Source: Candidatus Krumholzibacteriota bacterium
Lineage (GTDB): Bacteria > Krumholzibacteriota > Krumholzibacteriia > LZORAL124-64-63
DNA length: 23,318 nt
NCBI GenBank assembly: GCA_039714075.1
Contig: JBDLKA010000055.1
Span: 1-23,318, forward strand
Direction: 5' to 3'
The position numbers and the translations under genes are program-made. Below are positions 2,831 to 22,023 of this stretch, piece by piece. The notes below the pieces were generated by a model. It searched no databases, was not told the DNA's origin, and saw nothing but the letters and a program-made list of their open reading frames with translations. Each line of letters opens with the position of its first letter. Position 1 is the first letter of the stretch.

Positions 2831-3064
2831 ATTGTCGGCCCATCTCCCCCGGGCAGGACCCACACGGTCCCGCCTTGTTGATGTCGAATTACACGGACGA
2901 TATTAATTTAGTACAATCGGTACTGTACTCCAATAAGCCCGGCTCTACAACCGGCGGCCCAGGCCCCTGAACCCCGAAACTGGCATCAGGGACCGTTTGA
3001 TCCCATATTTTGCTGTTCCCGGACGAGCCGGGTTCCAACACAGCAATGCCAAAGGCAGGATGGT

Positions 3065-5021: not shown

Positions 5022-7799
5022 TCACCCCTCGAGAATCAAGTCCGCCAGCCGGGCGCGGGTTTCCATCATTTCCTGATGGTCCCGGTCGGCTCCGGCCCAG
5101 ATACCCAGGGCTTTTTCATAGTAGCGGACGGCCTCGGACTTCTTGCCTTCCGTTTCCGCTATCAGCCCCATCAGGGCCAGGGCCCGGGGCCAGGTGCCGC
5201 CCCCATTCTGGAGGTAGGCGGCGAAAGGATATTCCACCAGGGGATCGAGGGCCTTGCGCGCCTGGCTGAATTTGCCGGCGCCCAGATAGGCCCGGGCCAA
5301 AGCCAGACGGGGGTGCGGAGCGGGCAGGGTCTTCAGGGACAGCTCGATCTCGGCGGCGGCCTCCCGGTAGAGCCCCCGGTACAACAGGACCAATCCCCGC
5401 AGATGATGGGCATTCCCCCGGTGGTCATGGGTCAGCTCACCGTTTGCGGGATTCTCCAGGGTGGCCAGGATTTCCTCGGCACCGCTCAAATCATCCATCA
5501 GGACCCGTGTTCGGCCCAGGTAGTACAGGGGAACCGCCCCGGGCCAGGTTTCCACCACCCGGGAAAAGTCCGCCTGGGCCATCTCCAGGCGGCCGGCCGC
5601 CAGGTGGGTAAGGCCCCGATAGATCAGGATCCAGGATTCCTGGCTGCGGTTGCCCACCCGCCGCACTTCGCCCAGGGCTTTCTGGAGATGGTCCAGGGCC
5701 TCGTCATTCCGACCGAGGTAGTACAGGAACTTGGCCTGGCGGTAATCCAGGCTCACCGAAGGTCTGTCCGAACCGGCGGCCAGCGAATCCTGCAGCGCCT
5801 GGGCGCCGTCCAGGTCCATCCGGCAGACATGAATCCAGCTCAGGTTGTCCAGGGTCCGGTCCTGGCGGGGTTGGCTGCGCAGCACCCGGGAAAACTGGGC
5901 AACCGCTTCCTCGTAGCGGGCGAGCCCCCCGAAGGCGTTGCCCAGGGCGAAATCGATGTACCAGTTTTCCGGAGCCAGTTCGGCCGCCAATTGCAGTTCC
6001 GCCAGGGCCCCTTCGTGCTGCGAACTCAGCATGTAGGTGGTGGCCAGATTCATGCGCACATCGAAATCGTCCTCATGTTCCCCCAGCAGCAGGATGAACT
6101 TCTCGATGGCCTTGTCGTAATCCGCGCGGTAACGGAAATATTCCGCCTCGATGTAATACTTCTCCCGGTCGCTCAGGGATTTCCGGTTGTCCATGGCCTT
6201 GGCGCTGAATTCCAGGGCGTCGTTGGTGCGGGCGGTGATAAAATAGATCCGGCCCAGCTTGGAGTACGCGATCGCGAAAGTCGAATCCGCCGCGACGGCC
6301 TCCTGGTAGAAGGTGGCGGCTTTTTCCCAGTCGGCCTGCCCCAGGTGGCGTTCTCCCTGGGTGTAGTACCGCAGGGCCTGCAACGAACTGGTCGTTACCC
6401 GGGCCAGGGGTTTGTCCCGGCGTTCGATGGAAAGAAGCGATTCCCCCAGGTCCTTGCGGATGTTGCGGGCCAGGGTGTCGATCGCCTTGAAGACATCGTC
6501 CCTTTTTTCCGCCTTGGCGCTTTTCGTGCTGACCGTTTCCCCGGTGACCGGATCGACCAGGCGGGCCCCGATCAGGTAGGAGCTGTCGAGCCTGGTGATC
6601 GAACCCTCCAGCACGGCCGCGATGCCCTCCCTCTGGGCCAGTTCACGCCCCAGGTCGGCGGTGATGAGGGAACCGGGTCTCTTCTCCATTCTCCCCAGGG
6701 CGTCGGACAGCCGGCGGCCCGTGAACAGGCTCACGTAGGGCGATTGCCCCAGGTCATAGGACAGGGCCTGCCTGATGGTCCCGTCGAAGACCTCGTCCCC
6801 GGTCAGGTTATCGAATTCCGTCACCAACAGAAGATCCTGTTTTTCGAAATCCAGGCGGCGGAACGAACCCAGCCGGGAAAAGCCCACCGCGATGATCACG
6901 GCCAGGATCACCAGGACCGACCACATCACCCGGCGGGAAAGGAACCACCCGGGTTTTTCCCGCTGGTGGTCCTCCCCGCCCTTTCCGGATCCGGGTTTTC
7001 CGGGGAACCAACGGGACAGATCTTCCAGGAACTCACCGGCATCCGCGTGCCTGAGCCGGGAGTTCTTTTCCATGGCCTTTCCCAGCAGTTCCCCCACGGG
7101 GGCCGGCAATCCGGGGATCGGTTCCGGATCGACGTTCACCACCTCGTACATGACGGCCTGGGGATGATCCCCGGGAAAGGCCTTCCTGCCGCAGATCAGT
7201 TCATACAGGAGCGTTCCCAGGGCCCAGACGTCCGTGGTGAGGTCCACCCGCTGGGCCTGCAGCTGTTCGGGCGCCATGTAGGCCATGGTGCCCATGGTGG
7301 AATCCTGGGTGATGACATGGCTTTTGCCCGACAGCTTGGCCACCCCGAAATCGATCAGTTTCACCTGGCCGTCTTCCAGCACGATGATGTTGCGGGGATT
7401 GATGTCCTGGTGAACGATTCCCTGCCGGTGGGCCAGCGCCAGCCCCGAGGCGAGCTGGCTGATGATGTCCAGGGCGTCGTCCAGCTTGAGGTTGCCCTCG
7501 GCCATGACCTGCTCGAGGTTTTTCCCTTCGTAGAAGGCCATGGCGATGAAGATTTCCCCGTCACGGGATTCGTCGATTTCGTAGATGGTGCAGATGTTGG
7601 GATGGTCCAGGGCGGAAGCGGCCTTGGCTTCCTGGACGAAGCGGGCCTTGGCCACCGGCTCGTAGGATTTCGAGGGGGGCATGAACTTGAGGGCCACGAT
7701 CCGGTCCAGCCGCAGATCTTCGGCCTTGTAGATCACACCCATCCCGCCTTCACCGATTTTGGCCAGGATGCGGTAGTGGGAAATGGTTTGTCCGATCAT
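5022..7799 (-). CDS. Membrane-anchored Ser/Thr protein kinase (Hanks type) with TolB-N-like and TPR-repeat C-terminal region
   Basis: GEGGMG, VALK, HPNI, DFG, GTMAYMAPE and DVWALG motifs, one TM helix (VMWSVLVILAVIIAVGF), then TPR-like helical repeats. Confidence 0.9.
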   Translation of the reverse strand: MIGQTISHYRILAKIGEGGMGVIYKAEDLRLDRIVALKFMPPSKSYEPVAKARFVQEAKAASALDHPNICTIYEIDESRDGEIFIAMAFYEGKNLEQVMAEGNLKLDDALDIISQLASGLALAHRQGIVHQDINPRNIIVLEDGQVKLIDFGVAKLSGKSHVITQDSTMGTMAYMAPEQLQAQRVDLTTDVWALGTLLYELICGRKAFPGDHPQAVMYEVVNVDPEPIPGLPAPVGELLGKAMEKNSRLRHADAGEFLEDLSRWFPGKPGSGKGGEDHQREKPGWFLSRRVMWSVLVILAVIIAVGFSRLGSFRRLDFEKQDLLLVTEFDNLTGDEVFDGTIRQALSYDLGQSPYVSLFTGRRLSDALGRMEKRPGSLITADLGRELAQREGIAAVLEGSITRLDSSYLIGARLVDPVTGETVSTKSAKAEKRDDVFKAIDTLARNIRKDLGESLLSIERRDKPLARVTTSSLQALRYYTQGERHLGQADWEKAATFYQEAVAADSTFAIAYSKLGRIYFITARTNDALEFSAKAMDNRKSLSDREKYYIEAEYFRYRADYDKAIEKFILLLGEHEDDFDVRMNLATTYMLSSQHEGALAELQLAAELAPENWYIDFALGNAFGGLARYEEAVAQFSRVLRSQPRQDRTLDNLSWIHVCRMDLDGAQALQDSLAAGSDRPSVSLDYRQAKFLYYLGRNDEALDHLQKALGEVRRVGNRSQESWILIYRGLTHLAAGRLEMAQADFSRVVETWPGAVPLYYLGRTRVLMDDLSGAEEILATLENPANGELTHDHRGNAHHLRGLVLLYRGLYREAAAEIELSLKTLPAPHPRLALARAYLGAGKFSQARKALDPLVEYPFAAYLQNGGGTWPRALALMGLIAETEGKKSEAVRYYEKALGIWAGADRDHQEMMETRARLADLILEG

Positions 7800-10746: not shown

Positions 10747-11922
10747 TTGGCAGCCCAAACCATGAAGTGTCTGGTGTTCGACAAATCCAGCATGGCCTGG
10801 GACAAATCCAGGGGATTCACCAGGATGGAAGCCCCCGTGCCCGTCCTGGACGAAAAGACCGATCCCGGCGACGCGGACCATGTCCTGGTCAAGGTCATCT
10901 ACGCCGGATTCTGCGGCAGCGACCGCGGCATCTGGAACCGCACGGCCTTCAAGGGCATGATTTTCGACAGCCTCAAGCGGGAAAAAAAATCCACCCGTAT
11001 CATCGGGCATGAAATGGTGGGAGAAATCGTCCAGGTGGGCTCGCGTGCGCAAACGCGGTTCGGCTTCCGTCCCAAGGACATCGTTTCCACCGAAAGCCAT
11101 ATCATCTGCGGCACCTGCTACCAGTGCCGTATCGGCCAGACCCACATCTGCAGCCAGGACGTGATCATCGGCATCGGCCGCGACGGCTGTTTCGCCGAAT
11201 ACATCAAGCTGCCGGCCAACGTGCTGTGGCCCACCGATCCCCGCCGGATCAAGATGAAGGTGGCCGCCCTGCAGGAACCGTTCGGCAACGCCGTGCACGC
11301 CTGCACCACCGCCGACCTGCGCGGCAGGACCGTGGCCGTTTTCGGCTGCGGAACCATCGGGCTGTTCGTGATCATGGTGGCCCGCGCACTGGGCGCCACG
11401 CGGATCATCGGCATCGAACCCAATCCCGCCAACGGGGCCATGGCCAAAAAACTGGGCGCGGACGACGTGATCCCGGTGGACCTGTCCCGATCCGCCCCCC
11501 ACGCCTGGAGCGCCGACAAGGAACTGGTCAAGGATGTGCGGGACGCCTTCGGGGGCATCGGCCCGGATGTCTGCATGGAAATGGCGGGTTTCAACTCCAG
11601 CGTCAACAACGCCATCCAGTCGGCCCGGCGTGGCGGTGAAGTGATCCTGTTCGGACTGAAACAGGGCAATTTCCACATCCAGGCCTTCGATCGCGTGATC
11701 GTCAACGGCCTGACCCTGCACAGCGTGATCGGTCGCCGGATTTTCGAAACGTGGTATATTACCCGCAACCTCCTGGAAGACCGCACCAACGGCATCCAGG
11801 AAAAAATCGCCGAAGTCATCCTGGGCGGCGGCGAGGAAGCGGTTGTCCACATCGATGAATTCACCCCGGAATCCTTCGAGAAAACCCTTTCCTTGTGGCC
11901 GAAGCCGCTGATCCAGTTCTGA
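10747..11922 (+). CDS. tdh: Zinc-dependent medium-chain dehydrogenase, probably L-threonine 3-dehydrogenase
   Basis: GFCGSD, GHE, structural zinc site CGTCYQC…HIC, EPFGNAVH, GCGTIG and the Tdh-like GRRIFETWY. The start is TTG 10747 (GGAGGT RBS at 10735-10740) or ATG 10762, not 10648. Confidence 0.75.
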   Translation: MAAQTMKCLVFDKSSMAWDKSRGFTRMEAPVPVLDEKTDPGDADHVLVKVIYAGFCGSDRGIWNRTAFKGMIFDSLKREKKSTRIIGHEMVGEIVQVGSRAQTRFGFRPKDIVSTESHIICGTCYQCRIGQTHICSQDVIIGIGRDGCFAEYIKLPANVLWPTDPRRIKMKVAALQEPFGNAVHACTTADLRGRTVAVFGCGTIGLFVIMVARALGATRIIGIEPNPANGAMAKKLGADDVIPVDLSRSAPHAWSADKELVKDVRDAFGGIGPDVCMEMAGFNSSVNNAIQSARRGGEVILFGLKQGNFHIQAFDRVIVNGLTLHSVIGRRIFETWYITRNLLEDRTNGIQEKIAEVILGGGEEAVVHIDEFTPESFEKTLSLWPKPLIQF

Positions 11923-12261: not shown

Positions 12262-12777
12262 TCAGTCCTCGCGCGAATCCCCGACCTTTTTCAGTTCCTG
12301 ACGCAATTCCTTCATCTCCTGCTGCAATTTTTTCAATTCCCGGCGCAGATCCTCGTCCGTCGATGCCTCCCACCGGTCGTGGGAACCGGTCCAGTCCTCG
12401 GTGTCGAACTCGTCCAGACCGGCCTGAAGCGCCACCGAGACCTGGGACATGACCTGATCCAGATCCAGTTCGAAGGTGGTATCCTCGTAGGAAAGGTCCA
12501 GACGGTTGTCCCGGCCCAGCCGGACCTGGAACTGCATGTCCTCCAGTTCGGCCATCACTTCGTCCAGACCGCTCAGGGCATCGGCCACGATCTCGTGGAC
12601 CGCTCCCATTTCGATGACCATCTCCTCACCGTCTTCACCGACGATGACCAACTTGGCCTCCTTGTCCTCGCAGTCGGGCTCGTCGGCCCACAGGACCACC
12701 GGCAGGAACAGGATCAACAAAGCCAGGATGAACGGCCCCGCTATCTTGAGGGAATCGGCATTTCGTTTGGCATTCAT
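12262..12777 (-). CDS. Hypothetical exported acidic protein with C-terminal coiled coil
   Basis: GGAGG RBS, signal peptide (…FILALLILFLPVVLWA|DE), D/E-rich body and a heptad-like tail LRRELKKLQQEMKELRQELKK. Confidence 0.75.
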   Translation of the reverse strand: MNAKRNADSLKIAGPFILALLILFLPVVLWADEPDCEDKEAKLVIVGEDGEEMVIEMGAVHEIVADALSGLDEVMAELEDMQFQVRLGRDNRLDLSYEDTTFELDLDQVMSQVSVALQAGLDEFDTEDWTGSHDRWEASTDEDLRRELKKLQQEMKELRQELKKVGDSRED

Positions 12778-12872: not shown

Positions 12873-15800
12873 TCAGAAAATCATTCCCAGGGCCGGCAAT
12901 TGCAGTGATTTCCAGTAGGCGGGATCGATCTTGAGGCTGACCGAGCCCCCGTCTCCGGATCGAGGCCGCACCATACCGCCGGGGCCGACACCATCGCTCA
13001 GGGACGGGCAGGACACCTCCAGCAGGGTCTCATCCCCGTCATCGGCGACAACCTTGATCTCAAGGCCCTGCCCCGCGTGGATCTTGAGGGTCTCCTTCAG
13101 GGAAACCGTACCGACCCAGCCCATGCCGGCGGGGGCCGCCAGGCCGATCTGGAAATCATCCGAACGGATCATGCTGCCGGCCGGACTTGTCCGGACCTCC
13201 AACCTGGCCCTGACCGGTTCCGTCAACCGGTCCTGATCCAGGCGGATGGTTCCCGAAAGATAATCCAGGGGCAAATGTGCCCTGAGAGCCACCAGGAGAT
13301 TATTGATGTCGGCCAGCTTCTGCGACCGCTCGGGGTCCGCGCCCAGATGATCGGTGTGCAGTGACGATATCGCCTTTGCCTGGCCGTGGAGGCTCAGCCA
13401 GGTACGGGACCAGTCCCGGCCCGCCACCGCCTCATCCTGCAACCGGGCCGCCGTCTTGCGGCATTCCAGCCATGACTTGTCGAACTTTTCCCGGGCCTTG
13501 TCGAATTCGAATTTGGCCACGGCCGACAGGTGCCCCGCCCATCGGTCCAGGAACGGAAGACCGTCCGACGTTGCCAGACTCTCCCAGACCTCCGGCGGCG
13601 GCTTGAGGTCCATGGTGATCCGGAATCCGGCCACCTGGTCCCTTACCGAACCGGTATACAAATATTCCGGTATCAGTTCGGGATCGCCCCCGTCCTTCAG
13701 GTGCAGGACAGCCGCTTCGTACCTGATCCTGGCCAGGAACTCACCATAGGCCCGGGGGTGGAAACGAACCGCCGGATTATCCTCCAGCCGGGACAGGGCA
13801 CGGGGGGATTCCGCCACCTTGGCCGCCAGCGTGACCGGCTTTTTCAGGGCCGAATACAGTTCCAGGGTACCGGTCAAAAGCCCCGGAATCCGTCCTTTGG
13901 GAAACATGACCGTCTGGGCGCGAAGATTGGTCAAAATGACCCGGATTTCCGACGACGGCCAATCCTGGTCCGCCAATCCGCGGCGGTAGGGCAGGAAGGT
14001 CTGATCCCCCCTGCGCTCGGCCTTCTTGAGCCGGACCAGGGCGAAGGCGCTGTTGGTGTAGGCCCGGGTCATCCGGCTGGCAGTCGGTGCCACCTGGCCC
14101 GCCGCCTGGCTGAGCGCTTTTTCCCATTCCCGTGAATAGGTTGAAGCTTCGAAAAGTGTCAACAGCAGGGCCATCCCGGACACGTGACCCCGGGTCTGGT
14201 CCAGGACCTGCTTGGCCTCGAGGGTTCCCAGGTCACGCCGGACATCCTGGAGAACGCCCTTGCCCACCCGGGACAACGAGTCCCGGCGGGCAATGACGGC
14301 CTGATCGGAAAGGGTGGAAATGTCCCGCCAGAAGACCCCCGCGGCCAGGGAATACCAAGCCAGTTCCAGTCGGGTCAATTCGTTTTCCAGGACCAGCCCC
14401 TGGTCGGCCAGGGATTGCAACCTCTGCGCTTCACGATCCGGCCGGCTGGCCTGCTGAATGCCGTCGGCCGCCAGTTTGGCGAACAGTTCCACCTGTTGGT
14501 TCAACGGCTGCACCGCCAGGTCCCGCAGATTGGCCAGGGCCTTGTGCCTTCCCTTGTCGACGGAAGGGTTCAACCCCTTGCCGGAGTTGGTCAACAATTT
14601 CAACTGGCGCCCGTAGACCTCGCCGACATCGACGACTTCCAGCAGGGTGGCGGCACGTTCGGTCCTGGGTTTTTCTCCCATCAAACCCTGAAGGTTGGCC
14701 CACTCCAGGCTTTCGGCGAGGGTCCTGCCCTCTTTCCACATCAGACCCGCAGTGCCTGCCAGAGCCAGGATGAGCACCAGGACGGCAACACGCACGGCAT
14801 TGGCTCGGGGAAACCTGCGGCCTCTTGATTTGGTCTTCGGATTGGGGAATTTCCGCACCAAGGGGCTGGGCTTTTCGGGTTTCGGGCGGACATTCGACCT
14901 GGCAGGCACAGGACTCGGGCCAGGGCCCGGGGAACCGGCCTGGGATGCGTCCGGCGCCTGCCAACGGGTCCTGGAGGGTTTCGACCTGGGCAGCGAGGCC
15001 TGGAGCGAATCCAGGGCCAGCGGTGGTTCCTGCCTGTCCCGCGAAGAACCCTGCACCGGCATGGCCGCCGAAACGGTTTCCTTGCGCAGATTGTCCTGTA
15101 AATCAGGGGTGGGCCTGGAATGAACCTGTTGCCGCTGACTTGTCCTGGAGACCCCGGCCAGATCACCAGCGGCAAGATATTTGCGGATCTCCTCGATGTA
15201 GTTGTCGACTCCCTTGACGTTGTCCCCGGCCAACCAGGCCATCATCATTCTCTGCCAGCCGGCGAAGACACATCCTTCGGACTCCACGCCCGCCAGGGTG
15301 TAGTTATTGGCTTCATTGGGCGCGAAAGAGGTGAAGCGCAGTTTTTTCCGGGCCTTTTCGGGCATGCAGGCGATGATCAGGGCCAGGCACCGGTCACTTT
15401 GTGCATTGGCCTGTTCGATGGGCATCAACAACTTGCCTTCGGCGATGAGTTTGACCACCGCTTCATCGACAAGTCCGATGTCGCTCTCGTTGGGGGCCGG
15501 ATCGACCAGGGGTCGGGTGGAATCGTAATCGATTTCGGCCCTCTGCAATTTTACCTGGGGATTCCATTCGTCGCAAAAGTCCACCGCCTGGGCCACGGCG
15601 AAGGGATTGCGCAGGAACGTGGCGTACGACCCCTCGGACAGAACCACGGCGTGGAAAAGCGGGTTCAAGCCCCGGCCGGCGCGGATGACCGTGAAAAGGC
15701 GGCCGGGGATCGCGCGTATGGTCGAAGTCAAACTGAAGGACATCAGCGCGGGTTGTTCCAGGCCCAGCGGGGGCGGCGGACCCCAGTTGTCGCACAAGCG

Positions 15801-15914
15801 GACTATTTCAGCGGCGGCTTTGTCTCCCATGCCCGAAGAACTCGCCAGGACCGACTTGCTCGGTTTGTCGTCCTTTAAATTGACCCCGTAAAGCAACTGT
15901 TCGATGAAAGGCAT
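12873..15914 (-). CDS. Large bitopic membrane protein with GAP1-N2/GAP1-M-like N-terminal region, Pro-rich linker, one TM helix and a helical C-terminal region
   Basis: 1013-aa ORF with GAGG RBS. The N-terminus 'EQLLYG…VLASSSG…WGP…FLRNPF' and 'MPEKARKKLRFTSF' recall GTPase-associated protein 1 domains (pattern recognition only). TM segment AVRVAVLVLILALAGTAGLMW. Confidence 0.6.
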   Translation of the reverse strand: MPFIEQLLYGVNLKDDKPSKSVLASSSGMGDKAAAEIVRLCDNWGPPPPLGLEQPALMSFSLTSTIRAIPGRLFTVIRAGRGLNPLFHAVVLSEGSYATFLRNPFAVAQAVDFCDEWNPQVKLQRAEIDYDSTRPLVDPAPNESDIGLVDEAVVKLIAEGKLLMPIEQANAQSDRCLALIIACMPEKARKKLRFTSFAPNEANNYTLAGVESEGCVFAGWQRMMMAWLAGDNVKGVDNYIEEIRKYLAAGDLAGVSRTSQRQQVHSRPTPDLQDNLRKETVSAAMPVQGSSRDRQEPPLALDSLQASLPRSKPSRTRWQAPDASQAGSPGPGPSPVPARSNVRPKPEKPSPLVRKFPNPKTKSRGRRFPRANAVRVAVLVLILALAGTAGLMWKEGRTLAESLEWANLQGLMGEKPRTERAATLLEVVDVGEVYGRQLKLLTNSGKGLNPSVDKGRHKALANLRDLAVQPLNQQVELFAKLAADGIQQASRPDREAQRLQSLADQGLVLENELTRLELAWYSLAAGVFWRDISTLSDQAVIARRDSLSRVGKGVLQDVRRDLGTLEAKQVLDQTRGHVSGMALLLTLFEASTYSREWEKALSQAAGQVAPTASRMTRAYTNSAFALVRLKKAERRGDQTFLPYRRGLADQDWPSSEIRVILTNLRAQTVMFPKGRIPGLLTGTLELYSALKKPVTLAAKVAESPRALSRLEDNPAVRFHPRAYGEFLARIRYEAAVLHLKDGGDPELIPEYLYTGSVRDQVAGFRITMDLKPPPEVWESLATSDGLPFLDRWAGHLSAVAKFEFDKAREKFDKSWLECRKTAARLQDEAVAGRDWSRTWLSLHGQAKAISSLHTDHLGADPERSQKLADINNLLVALRAHLPLDYLSGTIRLDQDRLTEPVRARLEVRTSPAGSMIRSDDFQIGLAAPAGMGWVGTVSLKETLKIHAGQGLEIKVVADDGDETLLEVSCPSLSDGVGPGGMVRPRSGDGGSVSLKIDPAYWKSLQLPALGMIF

Positions 15915-16073: not shown

Positions 16074-17987
16074 TCAGATGTCCCTTTCCAGGCCCAGACG
16101 TTTGACCTTGTCCACGTTGCCCGGGGATTGGGCCGCGGGGTGTTCCGTTTCGAACATTTCCTGGGGCATTTTACCCGTCAACCACGAGGGATTCATGGGG
16201 TACACGTGGGGATTGAACATGACCCCGTACATGTGCCAGATCAGAATGGCCAGGAACGCCAGCCAGGCCTCGTAGTAGTGGATGACCAGGAAGACCTCCA
16301 TGACACCCTTGCCGATGTAGGCGGTCAGGGGCTTTTCGAACCACATGGCCAGACCGGTCAGGACCATGACCACCGTCCCCCAGATCAGGGCCCAGTACTC
16401 GGCCTTTTCCACGAAGGAGAAGCGCCTCATCTGGGGATGTTCGTCGGTCCGCCCCAGGTTGTACATGAACATGCCCCAGACCTGTTTGGCATCGTTCCAG
16501 TTCGGTGCGATGTCCCTCAGGAAGATCCGGCCCTTGACCGTCACCAGATAGCCCAGGTGCCACAGGGAACCGAGGATCATCACCACGGCGGCCACGCGGT
16601 GGATCATGCCGCGCACGAACGCGCCTCCTTCGTGCCCGAAGATCATCTTGGCCCACCAGGCGTCGTAGAAGCGCAGTGAGAAACCGGTGATGACCAGGAC
16701 CGAGAAGGAAACGGCCAGGACCGTATGCTGGACCACCTCGTCGGCCTCCATGCGCCGCACCTGCTTTTTCCGCAGGACGTTGCGCACCTGGCGCAGCCAG
16801 TCCAGGAAACAGTAGACAACCATGCCGCCGATGATCAGCAGGATCATGACCAGGTAGATGGTCCGGACGTAGTAGGGCCAACCCTCGGCCACACCGGTGA
16901 CCGGCTCGTGGATCTTGGTTTTGGCCGCCTTTTCGGCGGACATCCCGTGGTGACAGTGACCGCAGGTTTCCACCAGGTTGGAGGCCGCAACCGAAGAGCG
17001 CGGATCGTCCGAAGGCAGAACCATGTGGGCGGCGTGGCAGGACGAGCAGTTGGCCACCGTCTGGTCGCCGGCACGGCTTTTCAGGCCATGATAGGAATCG
17101 ACGTAGGACTGCAGCCTGCCGGAGGGCAGGTCGTATTTTTCATTCAGCTTGGCCGAATCATGGCAGGGAGAACAGGTGGCCTCGGCCACGCGGAAGGGGC
17201 TGACCGGCGAGCGGGGATCGTCCGTGGCCAGGATCCCGTGCTCCCCGTGGCAGGTGGTGCAGGTGGGTGAGTCGACCTCGCCCCGGGCTACCAGTTCCCC
17301 GTGGATACCCTCTTCGAATTCCTTCTTGATCGTGCTGTGACACTTGCCGCAGGTCTTGGAAATATTGAAGAAGTTGATGGTCGATTCGATGTTGCCCGGA
17401 GGCAGGATCCGGTGGGCGGTACCCCCGCTGGAGTGGCAATCGTTGCAGGAGGCCGCGGTATCGACGCCGCCGGCGGTAGCCGTACCGTGCACGCCCTTCT
17501 GGTACACCTCGATGGGGTGCTTGAATTTGATGTTCAGATCGGCCAGGAAATCCTGATTCTCGTGACAGGATCCGCAGGTTGCCGGCAGGTTCGAGGCGTG
17601 CACCATGGATTCGGAATCCGTATGGGGCAGGATGTTGTGGCTGCCGTGGCATTCCTGGCAGGTGGGAACATCGGGTGAAACGCCGACAGTCCCGCGACCG
17701 TGCTGCTTATAGACTTCGACGGTTTCTTCGTGGCAAACACCGCAATCGGGTTTGGCCAGTGCCGCAGCATGGGGAACCTTGTGGATGTCGATATGGCAAT
17801 CCGTGCAGGAAAAATCCTCGTGGATGCTGCCACGCAGATCCTCCGTGGTCACCTCCGAGGGAACCCCACCGGTATTGGTATGACAGTCGGCGCAGACTTC
17901 ATCGGGGAAATCTCCGGCGAATGCCAGGGGGACCACGGCGACAAATGCCAGAAGCACCGCGAGGATTTCAATCCTTGCTCGTGTCAT
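16074..17987 (-). CDS. CbcL-like inner-membrane protein: periplasmic 11-heme cytochrome c fused to an FdnI/HydC-type di-heme cytochrome b domain
   Basis: The likely start is ATG 17987 (MTRARIEILAVLLAFVAVVPLAFA signal peptide; 637 aa). I count 11 CxxCH motifs: CADCH, CTDCH, CGVCH, CQECH, CGSCH, CNDCH, CGKCH, CTTCH, CSPCH, CSSCH, CGHCH. Five TM helices follow, with candidate heme-b His ligands (QH, IHR, IHY, WHMY) and the EKAEYWAL motif. Confidence 0.9.
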   Translation of the reverse strand: MTRARIEILAVLLAFVAVVPLAFAGDFPDEVCADCHTNTGGVPSEVTTEDLRGSIHEDFSCTDCHIDIHKVPHAAALAKPDCGVCHEETVEVYKQHGRGTVGVSPDVPTCQECHGSHNILPHTDSESMVHASNLPATCGSCHENQDFLADLNIKFKHPIEVYQKGVHGTATAGGVDTAASCNDCHSSGGTAHRILPPGNIESTINFFNISKTCGKCHSTIKKEFEEGIHGELVARGEVDSPTCTTCHGEHGILATDDPRSPVSPFRVAEATCSPCHDSAKLNEKYDLPSGRLQSYVDSYHGLKSRAGDQTVANCSSCHAAHMVLPSDDPRSSVAASNLVETCGHCHHGMSAEKAAKTKIHEPVTGVAEGWPYYVRTIYLVMILLIIGGMVVYCFLDWLRQVRNVLRKKQVRRMEADEVVQHTVLAVSFSVLVITGFSLRFYDAWWAKMIFGHEGGAFVRGMIHRVAAVVMILGSLWHLGYLVTVKGRIFLRDIAPNWNDAKQVWGMFMYNLGRTDEHPQMRRFSFVEKAEYWALIWGTVVMVLTGLAMWFEKPLTAYIGKGVMEVFLVIHYYEAWLAFLAILIWHMYGVMFNPHVYPMNPSWLTGKMPQEMFETEHPAAQSPGNVDKVKRLGLERDI

Positions 17988-18652
17988 TTTCCTGAAACCT
18001 TTCCCTGAACCCCGGTGACAACAGATTCGCGGGCCCAGAATATATGCGGCATCCACCTGCCCGCGCGTTTTGGGCGCGGACAAGGTGCTGAAGCAGGCCG
18101 TCCGGTGGGCCGGATCATCGACAACCCCGCAGCCCCACCCTGCTGAAATCTTAACAGCATCCAGGCGCCACCGGTCGACCCTTTCAGTTTGGGCGACGAA
18201 ATATCCCCGTGGATATCGTGTCCCTTTCACGGCTTCAATGTTAATGGGCAGGGGGGGCAATTCCAAAAACAAAGTCCTTCAACATATTCATTTTAATTGA
18301 CTTAATCCCTATCATTTCCGTGGGCTATCCGGAATCCAACCCTTTCGGGAGGGTGAAGAGGAGTAATTGAAAGTGAATCCTCATAGTGGCAAATACATGA
18401 CATCCCTAAGGGTAAATTGTTGTAATTTCACAGCTTGAATTAAAGAATACTCTTTTTAACTCTTTTTAATGAACAAAGTTATGAAAATCTACTTGGACAC
18501 CGGGGGAAATCTTGGGCAATTTTGCCGGGAATAGTCAACCCGTCAATTGATTAACACTTTCAATCCGGTTTGGTTATTTGCTTATCAGGCCACTCCTGGT
18601 GGTTTTTCCTGACAACCTGGCCCCAACAACCCCTAAAGGTGAGGTCCGTTTC
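17988..18652. promoter_or_regulatory. Divergent, partly AT-rich control region between the cytochrome c/b gene and the decaheme-porin operon
   Basis: 665-nt non-coding gap, visibly AT-rich at about 18230-18590 against a GC-rich background. Contains the tandem 10-bp repeat ACTCTTTTTA x2 (18449-18468). Confidence 0.65.
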
Positions 18653-19648
18653 ATGGATCGAAGAAATTTCAGCCAGAAGACACCGGGCAGCCCGCTCCTC
18701 CTGTTGTGGGGGCTGGTTTTCTGCCTGGCATTGTCGACCGGCGCGCTTGCCCAGGCTCCTGACGACTTCGCGGGCGCCGAAGCGTGCCTGGATTGTCACG
18801 ACGACATGGCCGCCGAGTTTTCGCGCACCGTACACGGGCAGCTGGCCGATTACGAGTATCCCGGCCTGGCCGGCGGCTGCGAGTCCTGCCACGGCGCCGG
18901 CGCCGCCCACGTCGAATCCGAAGACCCGGCCGACATTTTCCTGCCCACGGCGGAGATGGGAAACGACGGCACCGATCTGTGCCTGGATTGCCACAAGACC
19001 GGGCACACCCTCAACTGGGAAATGAGCACCCACGCCGAATCCGACGTGTCCTGCCTTTCCTGCCACAAGCTGCACGACAACTCCTCCAGCCGGGCCCTGC
19101 TGAACGGCACCGAGGAAGATGTCTGCTTCACCTGCCACATGGACACCCAGAGCAAGTTCCAGCTGCCGAGCCACCACCCGGTTCGTGAAGGCTTCATGAC
19201 CTGCTCCAGCTGCCATGACGTCCACGGCAACCAGTTCCAGGAGATCGCCGCCGGCGAAACCTCCCGGGACGCCTGCCTGGTGTGCCACCAGCAGCATGCC
19301 GGTCCCTTCGTGTTCGAACATTCTCCCGTCATGGAAGACTGCATGATCTGCCATGACGTGCACGGCACCGTGGCCAACAACCTGCTCCGGCAGAACGAAC
19401 CGTTCCTCTGCCTGCAGTGCCACCAGCCGCACTTCCACAGCATTTTGACCGGGGCCGAGGGTGATTTCGGCACCCCGGGCAACGTCAGCGACAGGGACCC
19501 GGGTTACGCCGGCCTGAGCATGACTTCCCATGCCGACAGCATGAAGAAAGTGATGCTGACGAAGTGTACCCAGTGCCACCAGTCGATTCACGGAACCGAT
19601 CTGCCTTCCCAGTCCATCACGGGACAGGGCCGGGCGCTCAACCGATAA
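18653..19648 (+). CDS. MtrA/DmsE-type periplasmic decaheme c-type cytochrome
   Basis: GAGGT RBS and ATG 18653, then a signal peptide. Ten CxxCH motifs: CLDCH, CESCH, CLDCH, CLSCH, CFTCH, CSSCH, CLVCH, CMICH, CLQCH, CTQCH. MtrA hallmarks SHHPVREG, GPFVFEH.PV.EDC and a terminal IHG(T/S). Confidence 0.93.
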   Translation: MDRRNFSQKTPGSPLLLLWGLVFCLALSTGALAQAPDDFAGAEACLDCHDDMAAEFSRTVHGQLADYEYPGLAGGCESCHGAGAAHVESEDPADIFLPTAEMGNDGTDLCLDCHKTGHTLNWEMSTHAESDVSCLSCHKLHDNSSSRALLNGTEEDVCFTCHMDTQSKFQLPSHHPVREGFMTCSSCHDVHGNQFQEIAAGETSRDACLVCHQQHAGPFVFEHSPVMEDCMICHDVHGTVANNLLRQNEPFLCLQCHQPHFHSILTGAEGDFGTPGNVSDRDPGYAGLSMTSHADSMKKVMLTKCTQCHQSIHGTDLPSQSITGQGRALNR

Positions 19649-19704: not shown

Positions 19705-21951
19705 ATGAGAACGCGAAACCTGATCATGTGCTCTGCGGTCCTGTTGATGTGCTGGACCGCTGTCAGCCTGGCTGACGAAGAGGGTGCATTCGTAGAGGGA
19801 TCCGCATCGGTCGGCGCTCACTACAGCCATTTCACCGACAACCCCGTGCGGGTCGGCGAATATGTGAACCTGAACGCCACCAAGGACCTTCAGGCGGACA
19901 TGATCCTGAACCTCTTCGGGGGTACGGACAACACTCTCTACAACATCAATCTCGATTACCGTGATGTCGCGACCAAGAGTTTCGAATTCGGGGTGGACAC
20001 GAAGAGCCTCCTGGCCGCGGATTTCCGCTACGGGTCGTTCATCCACAACCTGGATCACGACAACATGCGGAACCTGCAAGGCAAGGCCGGCGGGAAACAG
20101 GTCTACAATACCGACAACGACCCCATGGGCCGTTACTTCATGGAATACGAGCAGTTCCATGGGAACATCAAGGTGGACATGCCCTTCCTGACCGACGGCC
20201 AGGTCACCCTGGGCATGTCCGACCAGCGCAAGTCCGGTTACAAGCAGGCCATGTCCATCGACCACTGCGCCTTCTGCCATGTGGAAAGCAACGCCCAGCG
20301 CGTGGACCAGCAGACCCGGATCTGGAAGGCCGGCGCCGAGGGTTCCCTGGGTCCCGTCTCGGTGAACTACGACTTCGCCAAGACCGATTTCGTGGACAGG
20401 GCCAACGCGCCGGAGCACCGCTGGAAAACCGCGATGCATCCCGTCAAGGGCCCGATCGATCCCGTTTCCGGTCTGGATTATGTCGCCGAATTCGGCAGCC
20501 GGCTGGGTTTCCACGACGTGACCCTGCCCTATGCCCGAACCGCGGACAACGACAAGCTCAGCCACAGCGCCGGGATCAAGGTCGATCTCAAGCGGGCCGG
20601 CACCCTGAAGGGTTCCTACACGAACACCAACCGGACGAACTACCATACCGGCATCGAGGGCAAGTTCGACGCCGGAGCCCTGGGCTACGCGGTCAGGCTG
20701 ACTCCCAAAATGCGCCTGACCGGCAAGTTCCTGGCCTACGAAACCAAGGTCGACGACGCTTTCGTCGATCTGCCGCTGTTCCGTGACGGACGCGGCGCCG
20801 GCGGCCTGGACTTCGACTGGAACCGGATCTCCTCGGCCAACCGCAAGGTCTACCAGGGCGATCTGAACCTCGGATGGAAAGTGGCCAAGGGCAAGCACCT
20901 GAAGGTGAACTGGCGCTACCAGATCATCGACCGGCCGGCCATGGCCCAGAGCCAGACCAACTACGTCTTCGACGGCGCCAACGTCGGCCCTGCGGGGATC
21001 GTGGAAACGCTGCCCTCCGAGGCCTTCGAGAACAAGACAACGGTCAACCGGGTCAAGCTGCGGTACGACTCCCGCATCGGCATGAAGGGCAACTACAACC
21101 TGACCTACACCTACACCGGTGTGGACAAGCCGTTCATGAATCCCACGGCCATGTGCGAGGAAAGCCTGATCGGGACCGGCAGCGCCCATCCCGGCGGCAC
21201 GGCTGCTGGACGGTTGTACTACTTCCAGCGCGAGCGTTTCGGCAACGGGTCCAACCAGGCCAGCCAGTCCCACAAGGCAACGGGCCGGGCGTCGTTCCAG
21301 ATCACCCCCCGCACATCGATCAACGGGTTCGTGACCTACGCGCAGGACAAGAACGACGAGCTGAACATCTACCAGTACGATCGGGACTACCTCTCCCCCG
21401 GTTTGAACCTGTGGACCGCCCCGGCGGACCAGATCCTGTTCACGCTGGGCTGGACCTACAACAAGGTCAAGTCGAACGAGAACATCTGTATCCCGATATT
21501 CGATGGCTGAGCGGGTCACATCGAAGGCTCCGGTTCGGAGCTTCCCGAGCATTACGACTCCGTCAGCACGCAGTCCGATTACACGACCGACACGAACGTG
21601 TTCTTCATGAACGCCAACCTGACCGCCACGGAGAAGCTCAGCTTCTTCGCCGAAGGTGTCTACTCCCTGTCCAAGGGCAGTGCGACTTCCTGGGGGGACG
21701 TGACCCCGGAAGAGGATCACCATTTCGCAGTCAGTACCCCGGACTACGACTTCTCGAAGGTCAACGAATACAGCGACCTCGAGTACACGCAGCTGGAAGG
21801 TACCCTGGGCGTGAACTACAAGCTGGACAAGAGAGCCACGGTTTACGGCTCGGTCAACCTGATGAAACTCCAGGATGACCAGGAGTACGTCTACGGCGAC
21901 CTGACCGGCATGATCGTCACCTACGCCACCGGTATGACCGTGGGCTTCTAG
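19705..21951 (+). CDS. MtrB-position outer-membrane beta-barrel protein with one CxxCH and a predicted selenocysteine (748 aa, U602)
   Basis: GAGGT RBS, ATG 19705 and a signal peptide, followed by alternating beta-strand patterns and CAFCH at 20266-20280. TGA 21508-21510 is followed by an open frame continuous with the 21598-21951 ORF, which ends in the beta-signal-like YATGMTVGF. A SECIS-like hairpin follows the TGA. Confidence 0.85.
21523..21544 (+). promoter_or_regulatory. Bacterial SECIS-like hairpin of the beta-barrel gene
   Basis: GAAG(g)CTCC-GGTTC-GGAGCTTC stem-loop starting 12 nt after the TGA. The apical GG begins 21 nt after the TGA, the same offset as in the Rdx gene. Confidence 0.75.
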
Positions 21952-21994: not shown

Positions 21995-22023
21995 GAGGGG
22001 GGCCATCACGGCCCCCCTCTTCC
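21995..22023. terminator. Terminator hairpin between the convergent porin gene and pstB
   Basis: GAGGGGGGCC-atcac-GGCCCCCCTC perfect 10-bp stem followed by TTT and a pyrimidine run. Confidence 0.75.

What the first reader, a model, noticed from the sequence alone, without database searches (positions are those of the whole stretch)
21481..21951. Selenocysteine-containing outer-membrane beta-barrel: in-frame TGA in ICIPIFDG-U joins two ORFs
Seen: the 19705-21510 ORF stops at TGA without a beta-signal. The same frame stays open for 146 more sense codons (AGHIEGSGSELPEHYDSVS…YATGMTVGF*), supplying further beta-strands and a terminal Phe. The downstream piece has no evident RBS or signal peptide. 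A SECIS-like hairpin follows the TGA, and Cys595 lies seven residues before U602 in a probable loop. Inference: a 748-aa selenoprotein porin with a C-x6-U redox pair. Selenoproteins in outer-membrane barrels are very unusual. I recall a computationally defined Geobacter 'GSU2204-type CXXCH (seleno)protein' family beside a decaheme gene; this may be a member, which needs checking. I know of no functional characterisation.
Basis: partly seen in the sequence, partly recalled or inferred. Interest (0 to 1): 0.9.

Follow-up and report, generated by a model that had tools for sequence, protein, structure and literature searches.

The report
Selenocysteine outer-membrane electron-conduit barrel (OmcL-type)
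One gene, read through an in-frame TGA as selenocysteine, encodes a 748-residue outer-membrane barrel with one haem-binding motif that sits beside a ten-haem cytochrome; the family is already catalogued as a selenoprotein but has never been studied at the bench.

Summary
The ORF from 19705 stops at TGA 21508-21510. The same frame stays open for 146 more codons, to TAG at 21949-21951.

The TGA is very probably a selenocysteine codon:
- All 25 related loci that cover the site have TGA there. Their true stop codons vary.
- Coding constraint continues downstream of the TGA.
- A hairpin 22 nt downstream meets the bacterial SECIS consensus and shows compensatory changes.
- TGA is the ordinary stop of 9 of 11 other window genes.
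- Distant full-length relatives carry Cys at this position.

The protein scores 554.8 bits (cut-off 350) on NCBIfam NF041027, "GSU2204 family CXXCH-containing (seleno)protein". That model ends exactly at the residue before U. The upstream gene is a GSU2203-family decahaem.

The predicted fold is a 26-strand MtrB-like barrel, and its last five strands lie after the TGA.

The family is already listed as a selenoprotein in a 2026 review and is called OmcL, part of the "OmcKL conduit", in the electron-transfer literature. So this is a new member of a known, uncharacterised kind, probably from Krumholzibacteriia.

The proposed C-x6-U redox pair is specific to this clade, not to the whole family.

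The parts
19705..21951 (+). Whole gene: a 748-codon selenoprotein barrel of the OmcL/GSU2204 family, including the final TAG
   Evidence: Translation with TGA=U. NF041027 scores 554.8 bits against a cut-off of 350. tblastn relatives match query residues 1-748.
19705..19773 (+). Predicted signal peptide (residues 1-23, cleavage after SLA)
   Evidence: Read from the sequence. Helix 2-21 in the model with pLDDT below 50. The cleavage site is an inference.
20266..20280 (+). The single c-type haem-binding motif, C188-A-F-C191-H192
   Evidence: Invariant in 23 of 23 close rows and 99 of 99 family rows. It lies at the tip of the long hairpin formed by strands 7 and 8.
21487..21489 (+). Codon of Cys595, seven residues before U
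   Evidence: Invariant in the close clade. Present in only 38 of 99 family rows.
21508..21510 (+). In-frame TGA read as selenocysteine (U602)
   Evidence: TGA in 25 of 25 loci that cover the site. The NF041027 model ends at residue 601. Cys sits in this column in distant full-length relatives.
21525..21543 (+). SECIS hairpin: 8-bp stem (21525-21532 with 21536-21543) and apical loop GUU (21533-21535), 22 nt after the TGA
   Evidence: The consensus criteria come from the Fig. 2 legend of PMC13188914.
21511..21948 (+). The 146 codons after U: the rest of loop L11, the last five barrel strands (residues 623-640, 645-660, 694-706, 711-724, 735-747) and the terminal Phe
   Evidence: Model. Substitutions are concentrated at third codon positions, as they are upstream of the TGA. 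Invariant residues include G604, G610, S619, Y689-L692, G743, M744 and F748.
21995..22019 (.). G+C-rich palindromic hairpin between the convergent barrel gene and pstB; a likely terminator
   Evidence: 11 pairs, 9 of them G-C. No terminator-like site on the + strand between 21510 and 21951.
18653..19648 (+). Partner gene: an MtrA/DmsE-type decahaem cytochrome (GSU2203/OmcK family), 10 CXXCH motifs. The ATG at 18653 is the likely start.
   Evidence: NF041028 scores 373.9 bits (cut-off 325) and TIGR03508 scores 237.1 (cut-off 192.2). The profile hits PDB chain 6r2q_A at E 1.6e-55. The gene is directly upstream of the barrel gene in 25 of 25 loci that hold upstream sequence.
16074..18272 (-). Divergent gene: a multihaem cytochrome c (11 CXXCH) fused to a cytochrome b domain, CbcL-like. 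It is a candidate inner-membrane quinol/quinone link. The true start is probably internal.
   Evidence: PF01292, PF14522 and TIGR01583 hits. CXXCH count. A homologue lies within the fetched flank in 20 of 27 loci. The comparison with CbcL is recalled, not tested.

Best explanation
Positions 19705-21951 are one gene for a 748-residue outer-membrane selenoprotein of the GSU2204 (OmcL) family.

How the TGA is read. The ribosome reaches UGA at 21508. A SECIS hairpin 22 nt downstream (21525-21543) is inferred to recruit SelB carrying Sec-tRNA, so selenocysteine is inserted and translation continues. The extra 146 residues supply the last five of 26 beta-strands and the C-terminal Phe signal. Without them the barrel would have 21 strands and could not close.

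What the protein does. The barrel is MtrB-like. It is inferred to sheathe the MtrA-like decahaem encoded immediately upstream, forming a trans-outer-membrane electron conduit. A divergently encoded multihaem/cytochrome-b protein could link this conduit to the quinone pool.

How it differs from MtrB. The barrel carries its own c-haem site (C188-x-x-C191-H192) and the selenocysteine. Both lie, with most invariant residues, on the face that has the long loops. By the usual porin rule this is the outer face, or loops folded into the lumen. No MtrC-type surface cytochrome gene was identified among the window ORFs scanned. I therefore infer that haem plus Sec form the conduit's terminal redox site.

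Status of each step.
- Shown: one reading frame, a conserved TGA, a SECIS with covariation, family membership, the barrel fold, and the conserved gene pairing.
- Inferred: actual Sec insertion, haem attachment, the complex with the decahaem, topology, direction of electron flow and substrate.
For: Reading of the TGA.
- TGA at the site in 25 of 25 loci, while the true stops are 8 TGA, 16 TAG and 1 TAA.
- Flanks are conserved as C-x-P-x-F-[DG]-G-U-[AG]-G-H.
- Codon-position differences downstream of the TGA follow the coding pattern. Against L001 they are 0.154/0.147/0.399 downstream and 0.129/0.097/0.273 upstream.
- 9 of 11 other window genes end in TGA, which rules out a genome-wide reassignment.
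- 49 of 49 database homologues stop at about 600 aa and cover at most 80% of the query.
- 111 of 150 family representatives end at the pre-U motif.
- Cys is in the U column in P0065, P0100, P0141 and P0181.

SECIS.
- 8-bp stem, 3-nt loop starting GU, 22-nt spacing and -11.1 kcal/mol. This meets all four criteria of the consensus quoted.
- 3 of 8 pairs have changes on both sides, and pair 24-36 shows C-G, G-C, A-U and U-A.

Family.
- NF041027 at 554.8 bits against 350, with model positions 2-580 of 580 ending at residue 601.
- The neighbouring gene hits NF041028 at 373.9 bits against 325.

Fold.
- 26 strands with strand pLDDT mostly 85-95.
- The best PDB match is 6r2q_B, from the entry titled 'Structure of the Mtr complex': E 1.4e-18, TM 0.61/0.69. 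The next match has TM 0.36/0.45.
- The decahaem profile hits 6r2q_A at E 1.6e-55.

Gene pairing.
- The decahaem gene is directly upstream in 25 of 25 loci. A CbcL-like gene is present in 20 of 27.

Functional face.
- Invariant residues number 50 of 300 in the long loops, 37 of 386 in strands and 1 of 33 in short turns.

Literature.
- The OmcK/OmcL genes are reported as a putative porin:cytochrome conduit, up-regulated on haematite and magnetite in Geobacter (passages of PMC4070692; passages of PMC10553843).
Against: - No Sec machinery (selA, selB, selC, selD) was seen. There is no tRNA-Sec in the window or in the 27 loci, and the rest of the genome could not be searched.
- Rfam gave no SECIS match.
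- Folded alone, the hairpin is no more stable than shuffles (z -1.15; z -1.64 for the 80-nt stretch).
- All loops that carry the haem motif, C484, C595 and U602 have pLDDT below 50. Their side of the membrane and their mutual distance are therefore not modelled, and I had no coordinates.
- The barrel has no sequence-level match in the PDB (0 hits at E up to 1) and no TIGR03509 hit of its own.
- A haem-bearing loop would have to cross the outer membrane during folding, and nothing here shows that it does.
- Some family members have Gly instead of Sec or Cys at the site and still score above the cut-off (P0142, 468.8 bits). Sec is therefore not indispensable to every member.
Confidence: 0.8

Rival explanations
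1. The core of the mechanism is a Cys595-Sec602 selenenylsulfide redox pair in a loop. This pair, rather than the haem, would do the chemistry.
For: C595 is invariant in the close clade: 49 of 49 database homologues and 23 of 23 full-length rows. C595 and U602 lie in the same predicted loop, L11.
Against: The Cys at -7 is present in only 54 of 111 representatives that end at the pre-U motif and in 38 of 99 aligned family rows. Elsewhere it is replaced by Ala, Ser, Thr or Val. The Cys-form relatives P0065, P0100 and P0141 have Ala there. By contrast the CXXCH motif is 99 of 99.
Confidence: 0.2
2. Translation normally ends at the UGA. The 601-residue protein would be the product, and the downstream 146 codons would be a separate small gene or non-coding remnant (a split or truncated porin).
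For: Gene callers predict about 600-aa proteins in 49 of 49 homologues. Ten short proteins that match only residues 624-748 or later exist among the representatives.
Against: - Conservation starts at the first codon after the TGA (A603, G604, H605, G608-G610), before any in-frame start. The first start is GTG at 21598, 30 codons on, with no Shine-Dalgarno sequence.
- The stop is always TGA, never TAA or TAG (25 of 25), whereas true stops vary.
- A SECIS with covariation follows.
- 21 strands cannot close a barrel, and the beta-signal Phe is at residue 748.
- Full-length Cys forms exist.
Confidence: 0.04
3. The TGA is a nonsense mutation, a sequencing error or a pseudogene lesion in this one genome.
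For: None beyond the stop itself. One relative, L016, does carry an extra in-frame TAG at codon 281 of its match.
Against: The same TGA occurs in 25 of 25 independent assemblies at 40-78% protein identity. Downstream coding constraint is intact.
Confidence: 0.01
4. The organism reads TGA as a standard amino acid (Trp or Gly) throughout its genome.
For: The frame is open under such codes.
Against: 9 of 11 other genes in the window end with TGA at the positions expected from their family matches. 8 of 25 relatives use TGA as the true stop of this same gene.
Confidence: 0.01

Closest known systems
GSU2204 family CXXCH-containing (seleno)protein (NCBIfam NF041027), called OmcL in Geobacter sulfurreducens
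   Same: - Full-length match above the curated cut-off.
- A single CXXCH motif.
- An in-frame TGA directly after the model's last position.
- A GSU2203/OmcK-family decahaem gene alongside.
- Listed as a selenoprotein family, described as an MtrB/PioB family outer-membrane barrel, in the table of review PMC13188914.
   Different: - The source lineage: the closest loci are Candidatus Krumholzibacteriia MAGs and MAGs labelled Fibrobacteraceae, not Geobacter.
- Here the pair sits beside a divergent multihaem/cytochrome-b gene in 20 of 27 loci. For the HotSeep-1 homologues, PMC10553843 states that there is no adjacent periplasmic cytochrome gene.
- The Cys at -7 is specific to this clade.
MtrB of the MtrCAB complex (PDB 6r2q chain B) and the MtrB/PioB family (TIGR03509)
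   Same: - A 26-strand barrel. It is the best structural match, with TM 0.61/0.69.
- Encoded next to an MtrA-type decahaem.
   Different: - No sequence-level hit for this protein. Only 22-33-bit TIGR03509 hits in 6 of 20 relatives.
- The barrel has a CXXCH motif and a selenocysteine.
- No MtrC-like gene was identified among the window ORFs scanned.
Cyc2-type fused cytochrome-porins of iron oxidisers (recalled, not tested here)
   Same: An outer-membrane barrel that itself carries one c-type haem motif.
   Different: As I recall it, Cyc2 has the haem motif at the N-terminus of a smaller barrel, with no decahaem partner and no selenocysteine. Nothing was compared here.
ExtKL (GSU2937-2936), a selenocysteine-containing multihaem cytochrome of Geobacter
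   Same: A selenoprotein inside an extracellular-electron-transfer gene cluster, predicted in silico (passages of PMC5877670; table of PMC13188914).
   Different: ExtKL is a multihaem cytochrome, not a barrel. No sequence relation was tested here.

Membership tests
NF041027, GSU2204 family CXXCH-containing (seleno)protein | HMM score at or above the curated cut-off of 350 bits over the whole model | tested here: met
   554.8 bits. Model positions 2-580 of 580 align to residues 11-601.
NF041027, GSU2204 family CXXCH-containing (seleno)protein | One CXXCH haem-binding motif | tested here: met
   C188-A-F-C191-H192, the only CXXCH in the protein. 99 of 99 family rows keep it.
NF041027, GSU2204 family CXXCH-containing (seleno)protein | Sec (TGA) or Cys directly after the ...[FMY]-x-G end of the model, with homologous sequence continuing beyond | tested here: met
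   TGA at codon 602. 25 of 25 loci have TGA and conserved downstream sequence. Cys is present in distant full-length members.
NF041027, GSU2204 family CXXCH-containing (seleno)protein | Neighbouring GSU2203-family decahaem cytochrome gene | tested here: met
   NF041028 at 373.9 bits against a cut-off of 325 for 18578-19648. Adjacent in 25 of 25 loci.
Bacterial selenoprotein gene | bSECIS: 3-9 nt apical loop, 4-16 bp upper stem, G in the first two loop positions, 16-37 nt from the UGA, and MFE of -7.5 kcal/mol or lower (Fig. 2 legend of PMC13188914) | tested here: met
   Loop GUU, 8 bp, 22 nt spacing and -11.1 kcal/mol. Covariation in 3 of 8 pairs. No Rfam family matched.
Bacterial selenoprotein gene | The genome encodes selA, selB, selC (tRNA-Sec) and selD | not testable with these tools
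   None of these is in the window. No tRNA-Sec in the 27 loci.
Bacterial selenoprotein gene | Selenium actually incorporated at the UGA | not testable with these tools
   This needs 75Se labelling or mass spectrometry.
MtrB/PioB decahaem-associated outer-membrane protein (TIGR03509) | HMM score at or above the cut-off of 240.05 bits | tested here: not met
   No TIGR03509 hit at E up to 0.01 for the window protein. Relatives reach only 22-33 bits. The protein therefore works like MtrB but is not a member by this model.
MtrB/PioB decahaem-associated outer-membrane protein (TIGR03509) | A large (26-strand) barrel fold like MtrB, encoded beside an MtrA-type decahaem | tested here: met
   26 strands. 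6r2q_B at E 1.4e-18 with TM 0.61/0.69. The decahaem profile hits 6r2q_A at E 1.6e-55.
MtrB/PioB decahaem-associated outer-membrane protein (TIGR03509) | Physical complex with the decahaem inside the barrel | not tested

The most novel reading that the evidence does not exclude
Selenocysteine 602 is the distal axial ligand of the barrel's own c-type haem, or sits directly beside it. This would make a haem-selenium redox centre built into the outward-facing loops of an outer-membrane barrel. It would take the place of an MtrC-type surface cytochrome as the terminal site of the conduit.

The evidence leaves this open:
- Across 99 family rows, the CXXCH motif and the residue before U are 99 of 99.
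- No other His or Met in residues 1-601 reaches 90%. The best are H114 at 77 of 99 and H287 at 76 of 99.
- The haem motif and U lie on the same long-loop face.

To my recollection a natural Sec-ligated haem has not been described.
Probability: 0.15. Interest if true: 0.85.

Novelty: new member of a known kind. Interest (0 to 1): 0.4.

Why it matters
Gene callers cut this barrel at 80% of its length, so electron-transfer surveys score a broken porin. PMC10553843 treats OmcL simply as a porin and does not contain the words selenocysteine or selenoprotein.

Reading it correctly shows three things:
- A widespread MtrAB-like conduit depends on selenium.
- The barrel has a haem motif of its own.
- The conduit occurs outside the Desulfobacterota, in Krumholzibacteriia-type genomes. 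One study inferred iron cycling for that group from other genes (PMC7914226).

An exported, outer-membrane selenoprotein is rare. The invariant Sec next to a haem motif is a clear target for biochemistry.

Tried and rejected
- **Rfam scan of the whole window at E up to 1.** No SECIS family matched. The only hit was a sub-threshold mmgR/suhB match elsewhere.
- **Search for longer proteins holding the C-terminal 146 residues.** 331 candidates, none at E up to 0.001. The Cys and Gly full-length forms appeared only in the exhaustive representatives search.
- **The listing of cluster members, for names and taxa of distant hits.** The database was switched off. The taxonomic spread of the wider family therefore stays unchecked, as does where Geobacter's own GSU2204 sits among the hits.
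- **Scan of 150 flank ORFs for Sec machinery.** The call exceeded the residue limit. I dropped it as unlikely to be informative.
- **PDB sequence search with the barrel profile.** No hits.
- **Reference 61 of the review (PMC2398784).** The review cites it for this family, but its main text contains neither 'cytochrome' nor 'CXXCH'. I did not open its supplements, and they may hold the original listing.
- **Rejected readings.** Pseudogene, split gene and genome-wide TGA recoding; see the rival explanations.
Full report
**1. The observation**

The + strand frame that starts at ATG 19705 (GAGG seven bases upstream) runs to TGA at 21508-21510. It then continues for 146 sense codons to TAG at 21949-21951. 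The read-through product is 748 residues. It has a signal-peptide-like N-terminus (MRTRNLIMCSAVLLMCWTAVSLA|DEEG), one CXXCH motif (C188-A-F-C191-H192), the sequence N-I-C595-I-P-I-F-D-G601-U602-A-G-H605, and the C-terminus ...YATGMTVGF. The first in-frame start codon after the TGA is GTG at 21598, 30 codons downstream, with no Shine-Dalgarno-like sequence before it.

**2. Is the TGA read as selenocysteine?**

*Protein searches.*
- All 49 database homologues found with the read-through protein are 467-614 aa and cover at most 80% of the query.
- The 28 that I aligned all end at the same ...C-x-P-x-F-[DG]-G.
- In other words, gene callers stopped at the same codon everywhere.

*DNA of relatives.*
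They come from MAGs labelled Candidatus Krumholzibacteriia, 'Fibrobacteraceae' or unclassified bacterium.
- Two loci (L026, L027) end before the site.
- In the other 25 the codon is TGA in 25 of 25. The same frame stays open for 141-154 more codons, to a conserved ...GM[TSN]xxF end.
- The true stop codons vary: 8 TGA, 16 TAG, 1 TAA.
- L016 carries one additional in-frame TAG, at codon 281 of its match.

*Coding constraint.* Downstream of the TGA, substitutions against the window concentrate at third codon positions, as they do upstream. Against L001 the figures are 0.154/0.147/0.399 downstream and 0.129/0.097/0.273 upstream.

*Genetic code.* TGA is the normal stop of 9 of 11 other genes in the window. 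The genome therefore has not reassigned TGA.

*Sec/Cys pattern.* The exhaustive representatives search gave 304 hits at E up to 0.001, with the best 150 listed.
- 111 of the 150 end in the pre-U motif.
- 74 have their best matched stretch ending at query residues 599-601 and at their own C-terminus.
- A few distant full-length relatives (20-27% identity) span the site. P0065, P0100, P0141 and P0181 have Cys in the U column. P0142 has Gly. P0111, P0171, P0177 and P0194 align poorly there.
- This is the usual Sec/Cys signature of a selenoprotein family.

**3. The SECIS element**

A hairpin lies at 21525-21543: stem 21525-21532 paired with 21536-21543, loop GUU. It starts 22 nt after the UGA and has an MFE of -11.1 kcal/mol. 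These values meet the four consensus criteria quoted in the Fig. 2 legend of review PMC13188914 (section 5 read). The criteria are a 3-9 nt loop, a 4-16 bp stem, G in the first two loop positions, 16-37 nt spacing, and -7.5 kcal/mol or lower.

On an alignment of the window plus 25 loci:
- 90.5% of cells pair, against 82.4% in shuffles (0 of 500 reach it) and at most 56.5% with slid partners.
- 3 of 8 pairs change on both sides.
- The pair in columns 24 and 36 shows C-G (16), G-C (3), A-U (1) and U-A (1), with 4 unpaired.
- That pair joins the third base of the Gly608 codon to the third base of the Glu/Asp612 codon. The peptide E-G-S-G-S-E is therefore partly dictated by the RNA.

Weak points: as a single sequence the hairpin is not more stable than shuffles (z -1.15), and Rfam has no matching family.

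**4. What the protein is**

*Family.*
- NCBIfam NF041027 ('GSU2204_Se_pt_1', GSU2204 family CXXCH-containing (seleno)protein) scores 554.8 bits against a cut-off of 350. Model positions 2-580 of 580 end exactly at residue 601.
- Pfam has nothing, and the C-terminal piece matches no model.

*Neighbours.*
- The upstream gene (18578-19648, likely start 18653) is a GSU2203-family decahaem: NF041028 at 373.9 bits against 325, and DmsE-family TIGR03508 at 237.1 against 192.2. It has 10 CXXCH motifs.
- Its profile hits chain A of PDB entry 6r2q at E 1.6e-55. The table labels that chain 'Cystathionine beta-synthase', while one search gives the entry title as 'Structure of the Mtr complex'. That chain A is MtrA is my recollection.

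*Fold.*
- AlphaFold2, run on 23 full-length read-through sequences, gives mean pLDDT 69.2 and pTM 0.62. There are 26 strands, mostly at pLDDT 85-95, and all long loops are below 50.
- The best PDB fold match is 6r2q_B: E 1.4e-18, TM 0.61/0.69. The next match, LptD, has TM 0.36/0.45.
- Strands 22-26 (residues 623-747) lie after the TGA. A product of 601 residues would have 21 strands and no terminal Phe.
- At sequence level the barrel has no PDB relative and no TIGR03509 hit of its own. It works like MtrB, but by that model it is not an MtrB/PioB family member.

**5. Gene context**

- The decahaem gene lies directly upstream of the barrel gene in 25 of 25 loci that hold upstream sequence. L024 and L025 start inside the barrel gene.
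- 22 of 22 decahaem homologues examined have 10 CXXCH motifs.
- A divergently transcribed gene (16074-18272, minus strand) combines 11 CXXCH motifs with a cytochrome-b domain (PF01292). It has a homologue within the fetched flank in 20 of 27 loci. It resembles Geobacter CbcL (recalled) and could link the conduit to the quinone pool.
- No MtrC-like surface cytochrome gene was identified among the window ORFs scanned. The next gene downstream is a convergent pstB. A strong palindromic hairpin at 21995-22019 lies between the two.

**6. Where the special residues sit**

Take the model's strands and the usual porin rule (short turns face the periplasm, long loops face outwards).
- All 12 turns after even-numbered strands are 2-4 residues long.
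- The CXXCH motif (L4, at the tip of two 24-residue strands), C484 (L9) and C595/U602/H605 (L11) all fall on the long-loop face.
- Invariant residues are enriched on that face: 50 of 300, against 37 of 386 in strands and 1 of 33 in turns. This is unusual for porin loops and suggests a structured functional module at the mouth of the barrel or in its lumen.
- This is inference. The loops are not confidently modelled, and I had no coordinates.

**7. The mechanism of the Sec residue**

The Cys at -7 occurs in 54 of 111 representatives and 38 of 99 aligned rows, and it is Ala in the Cys-form relatives.

*Family-wide invariants.* These are the CXXCH motif (99 of 99) and G601 before the U (99 of 99). 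No other His or Met in residues 1-601 reaches 90%.

*Preferred reading.* I therefore favour a role for Sec tied to the barrel's haem, as part of a terminal redox site, over a stand-alone selenenylsulfide. The bolder version, Sec as an axial haem ligand, is not excluded. I put it at about 0.15.

*Against any universal role.* P0142 has Gly at the site and still scores 468.8 bits.

**8. Comparison with what is known**

- The family is known. NF041027 exists. [quoted passage not shown]
- The review cites its reference 61 for this (PMC2398784), but that paper's main text mentions neither cytochrome nor CXXCH. I did not open its supplements.
- The electron-transfer literature calls the pair OmcK/OmcL. 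GSU2203 and GSU2204 are up-regulated with haematite and magnetite (table in PMC4070692).
- PMC10553843 describes an 'OmcKL' porin:cytochrome conduit that is highly expressed in a syntrophic sulfate reducer (passages). That paper does not contain the words selenocysteine or selenoprotein.
- Full-text searches for 'GSU2204' (2 papers), 'GSU2203' (2), 'OmcL'+'OmcK' (2), 'selenoprotein'+'decaheme' (2, apparently unrelated from their titles and abstract openings) and 'selenocysteine'+'MtrB'+'porin' (1, about ExtI) found no experimental study of this protein in the held library.
- 'Krumholzibacter'+'selenocysteine' gave one paper, which I did not open.

**9. Verdict**

- It is a new member, from a Krumholzibacteriia-like genome, of a selenoprotein family that is catalogued but has not been characterised.

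Noticed in passing
window 12873-15914 (-): A 1013-aa ORF with no CXXCH and no family above threshold. Weak leads point to GTPase-associated protein 1 domains: PF20014 at E 0.0043 (below the cut-off) and Atlas feature scores of 0.75-0.78, which count as leads only. It lies next to the CbcL-like gene and has homologues in the same position in 8 loci (L002-L005, L010, L014, L026, L027).
   Followed up: partly
window 12262-12777 (-): A 171-aa ORF with a signal-peptide-like N-terminus and only weak coiled-coil-type Pfam hits. It is conserved in L002, L003, L005 and L010 between the Tdh-like gene and the 1013-aa gene.
   Followed up: partly
L016:3881-6049: This relative of the barrel gene carries an extra in-frame TAG at codon 281 of its match, in addition to the conserved TGA. 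It may be a pseudogene or an assembly error. It was left out of the full-length alignment A3.
   Followed up: no
window 755-2863 (-): An M1-family aminopeptidase-like protein with a C-terminal FlgD-Ig / T9SS type A sorting-like tail (TIGR04183 at 22.7 bits against a cut-off of 23). Similar tails occur in seven loci. This would fit an origin in the Fibrobacterota/Bacteroidota-related group. That T9SS is typical of this group is recalled, not tested.
   Followed up: no
window 21523-21543: The SECIS stem is written in the codons for E-G-S-G-S-E-L. The third base of the Gly608 codon covaries with the third base of the Glu/Asp612 codon, so the RNA structure constrains the protein sequence in loop L11.
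   Followed up: yes
window 10977-11047 (-): A sub-threshold Rfam match to mmgR/suhB (25 bits against a gathering score of 41, E 0.23). It contains a hairpin followed by a U run and is probably just a terminator.
   Followed up: no
window 5022-7799 (-): A 925-aa Ser/Thr protein kinase fused to many TPR repeats. It has no homologue in the fetched loci.
   Followed up: no
P0194 (representative hit, 783 aa): A distant relative of the barrel family carries an extra N-terminal class-I cytochrome c domain (weak ccoP/c6-type hits) fused in front of the barrel. It scores 294.4 bits, below the NF041027 cut-off.
   Followed up: no
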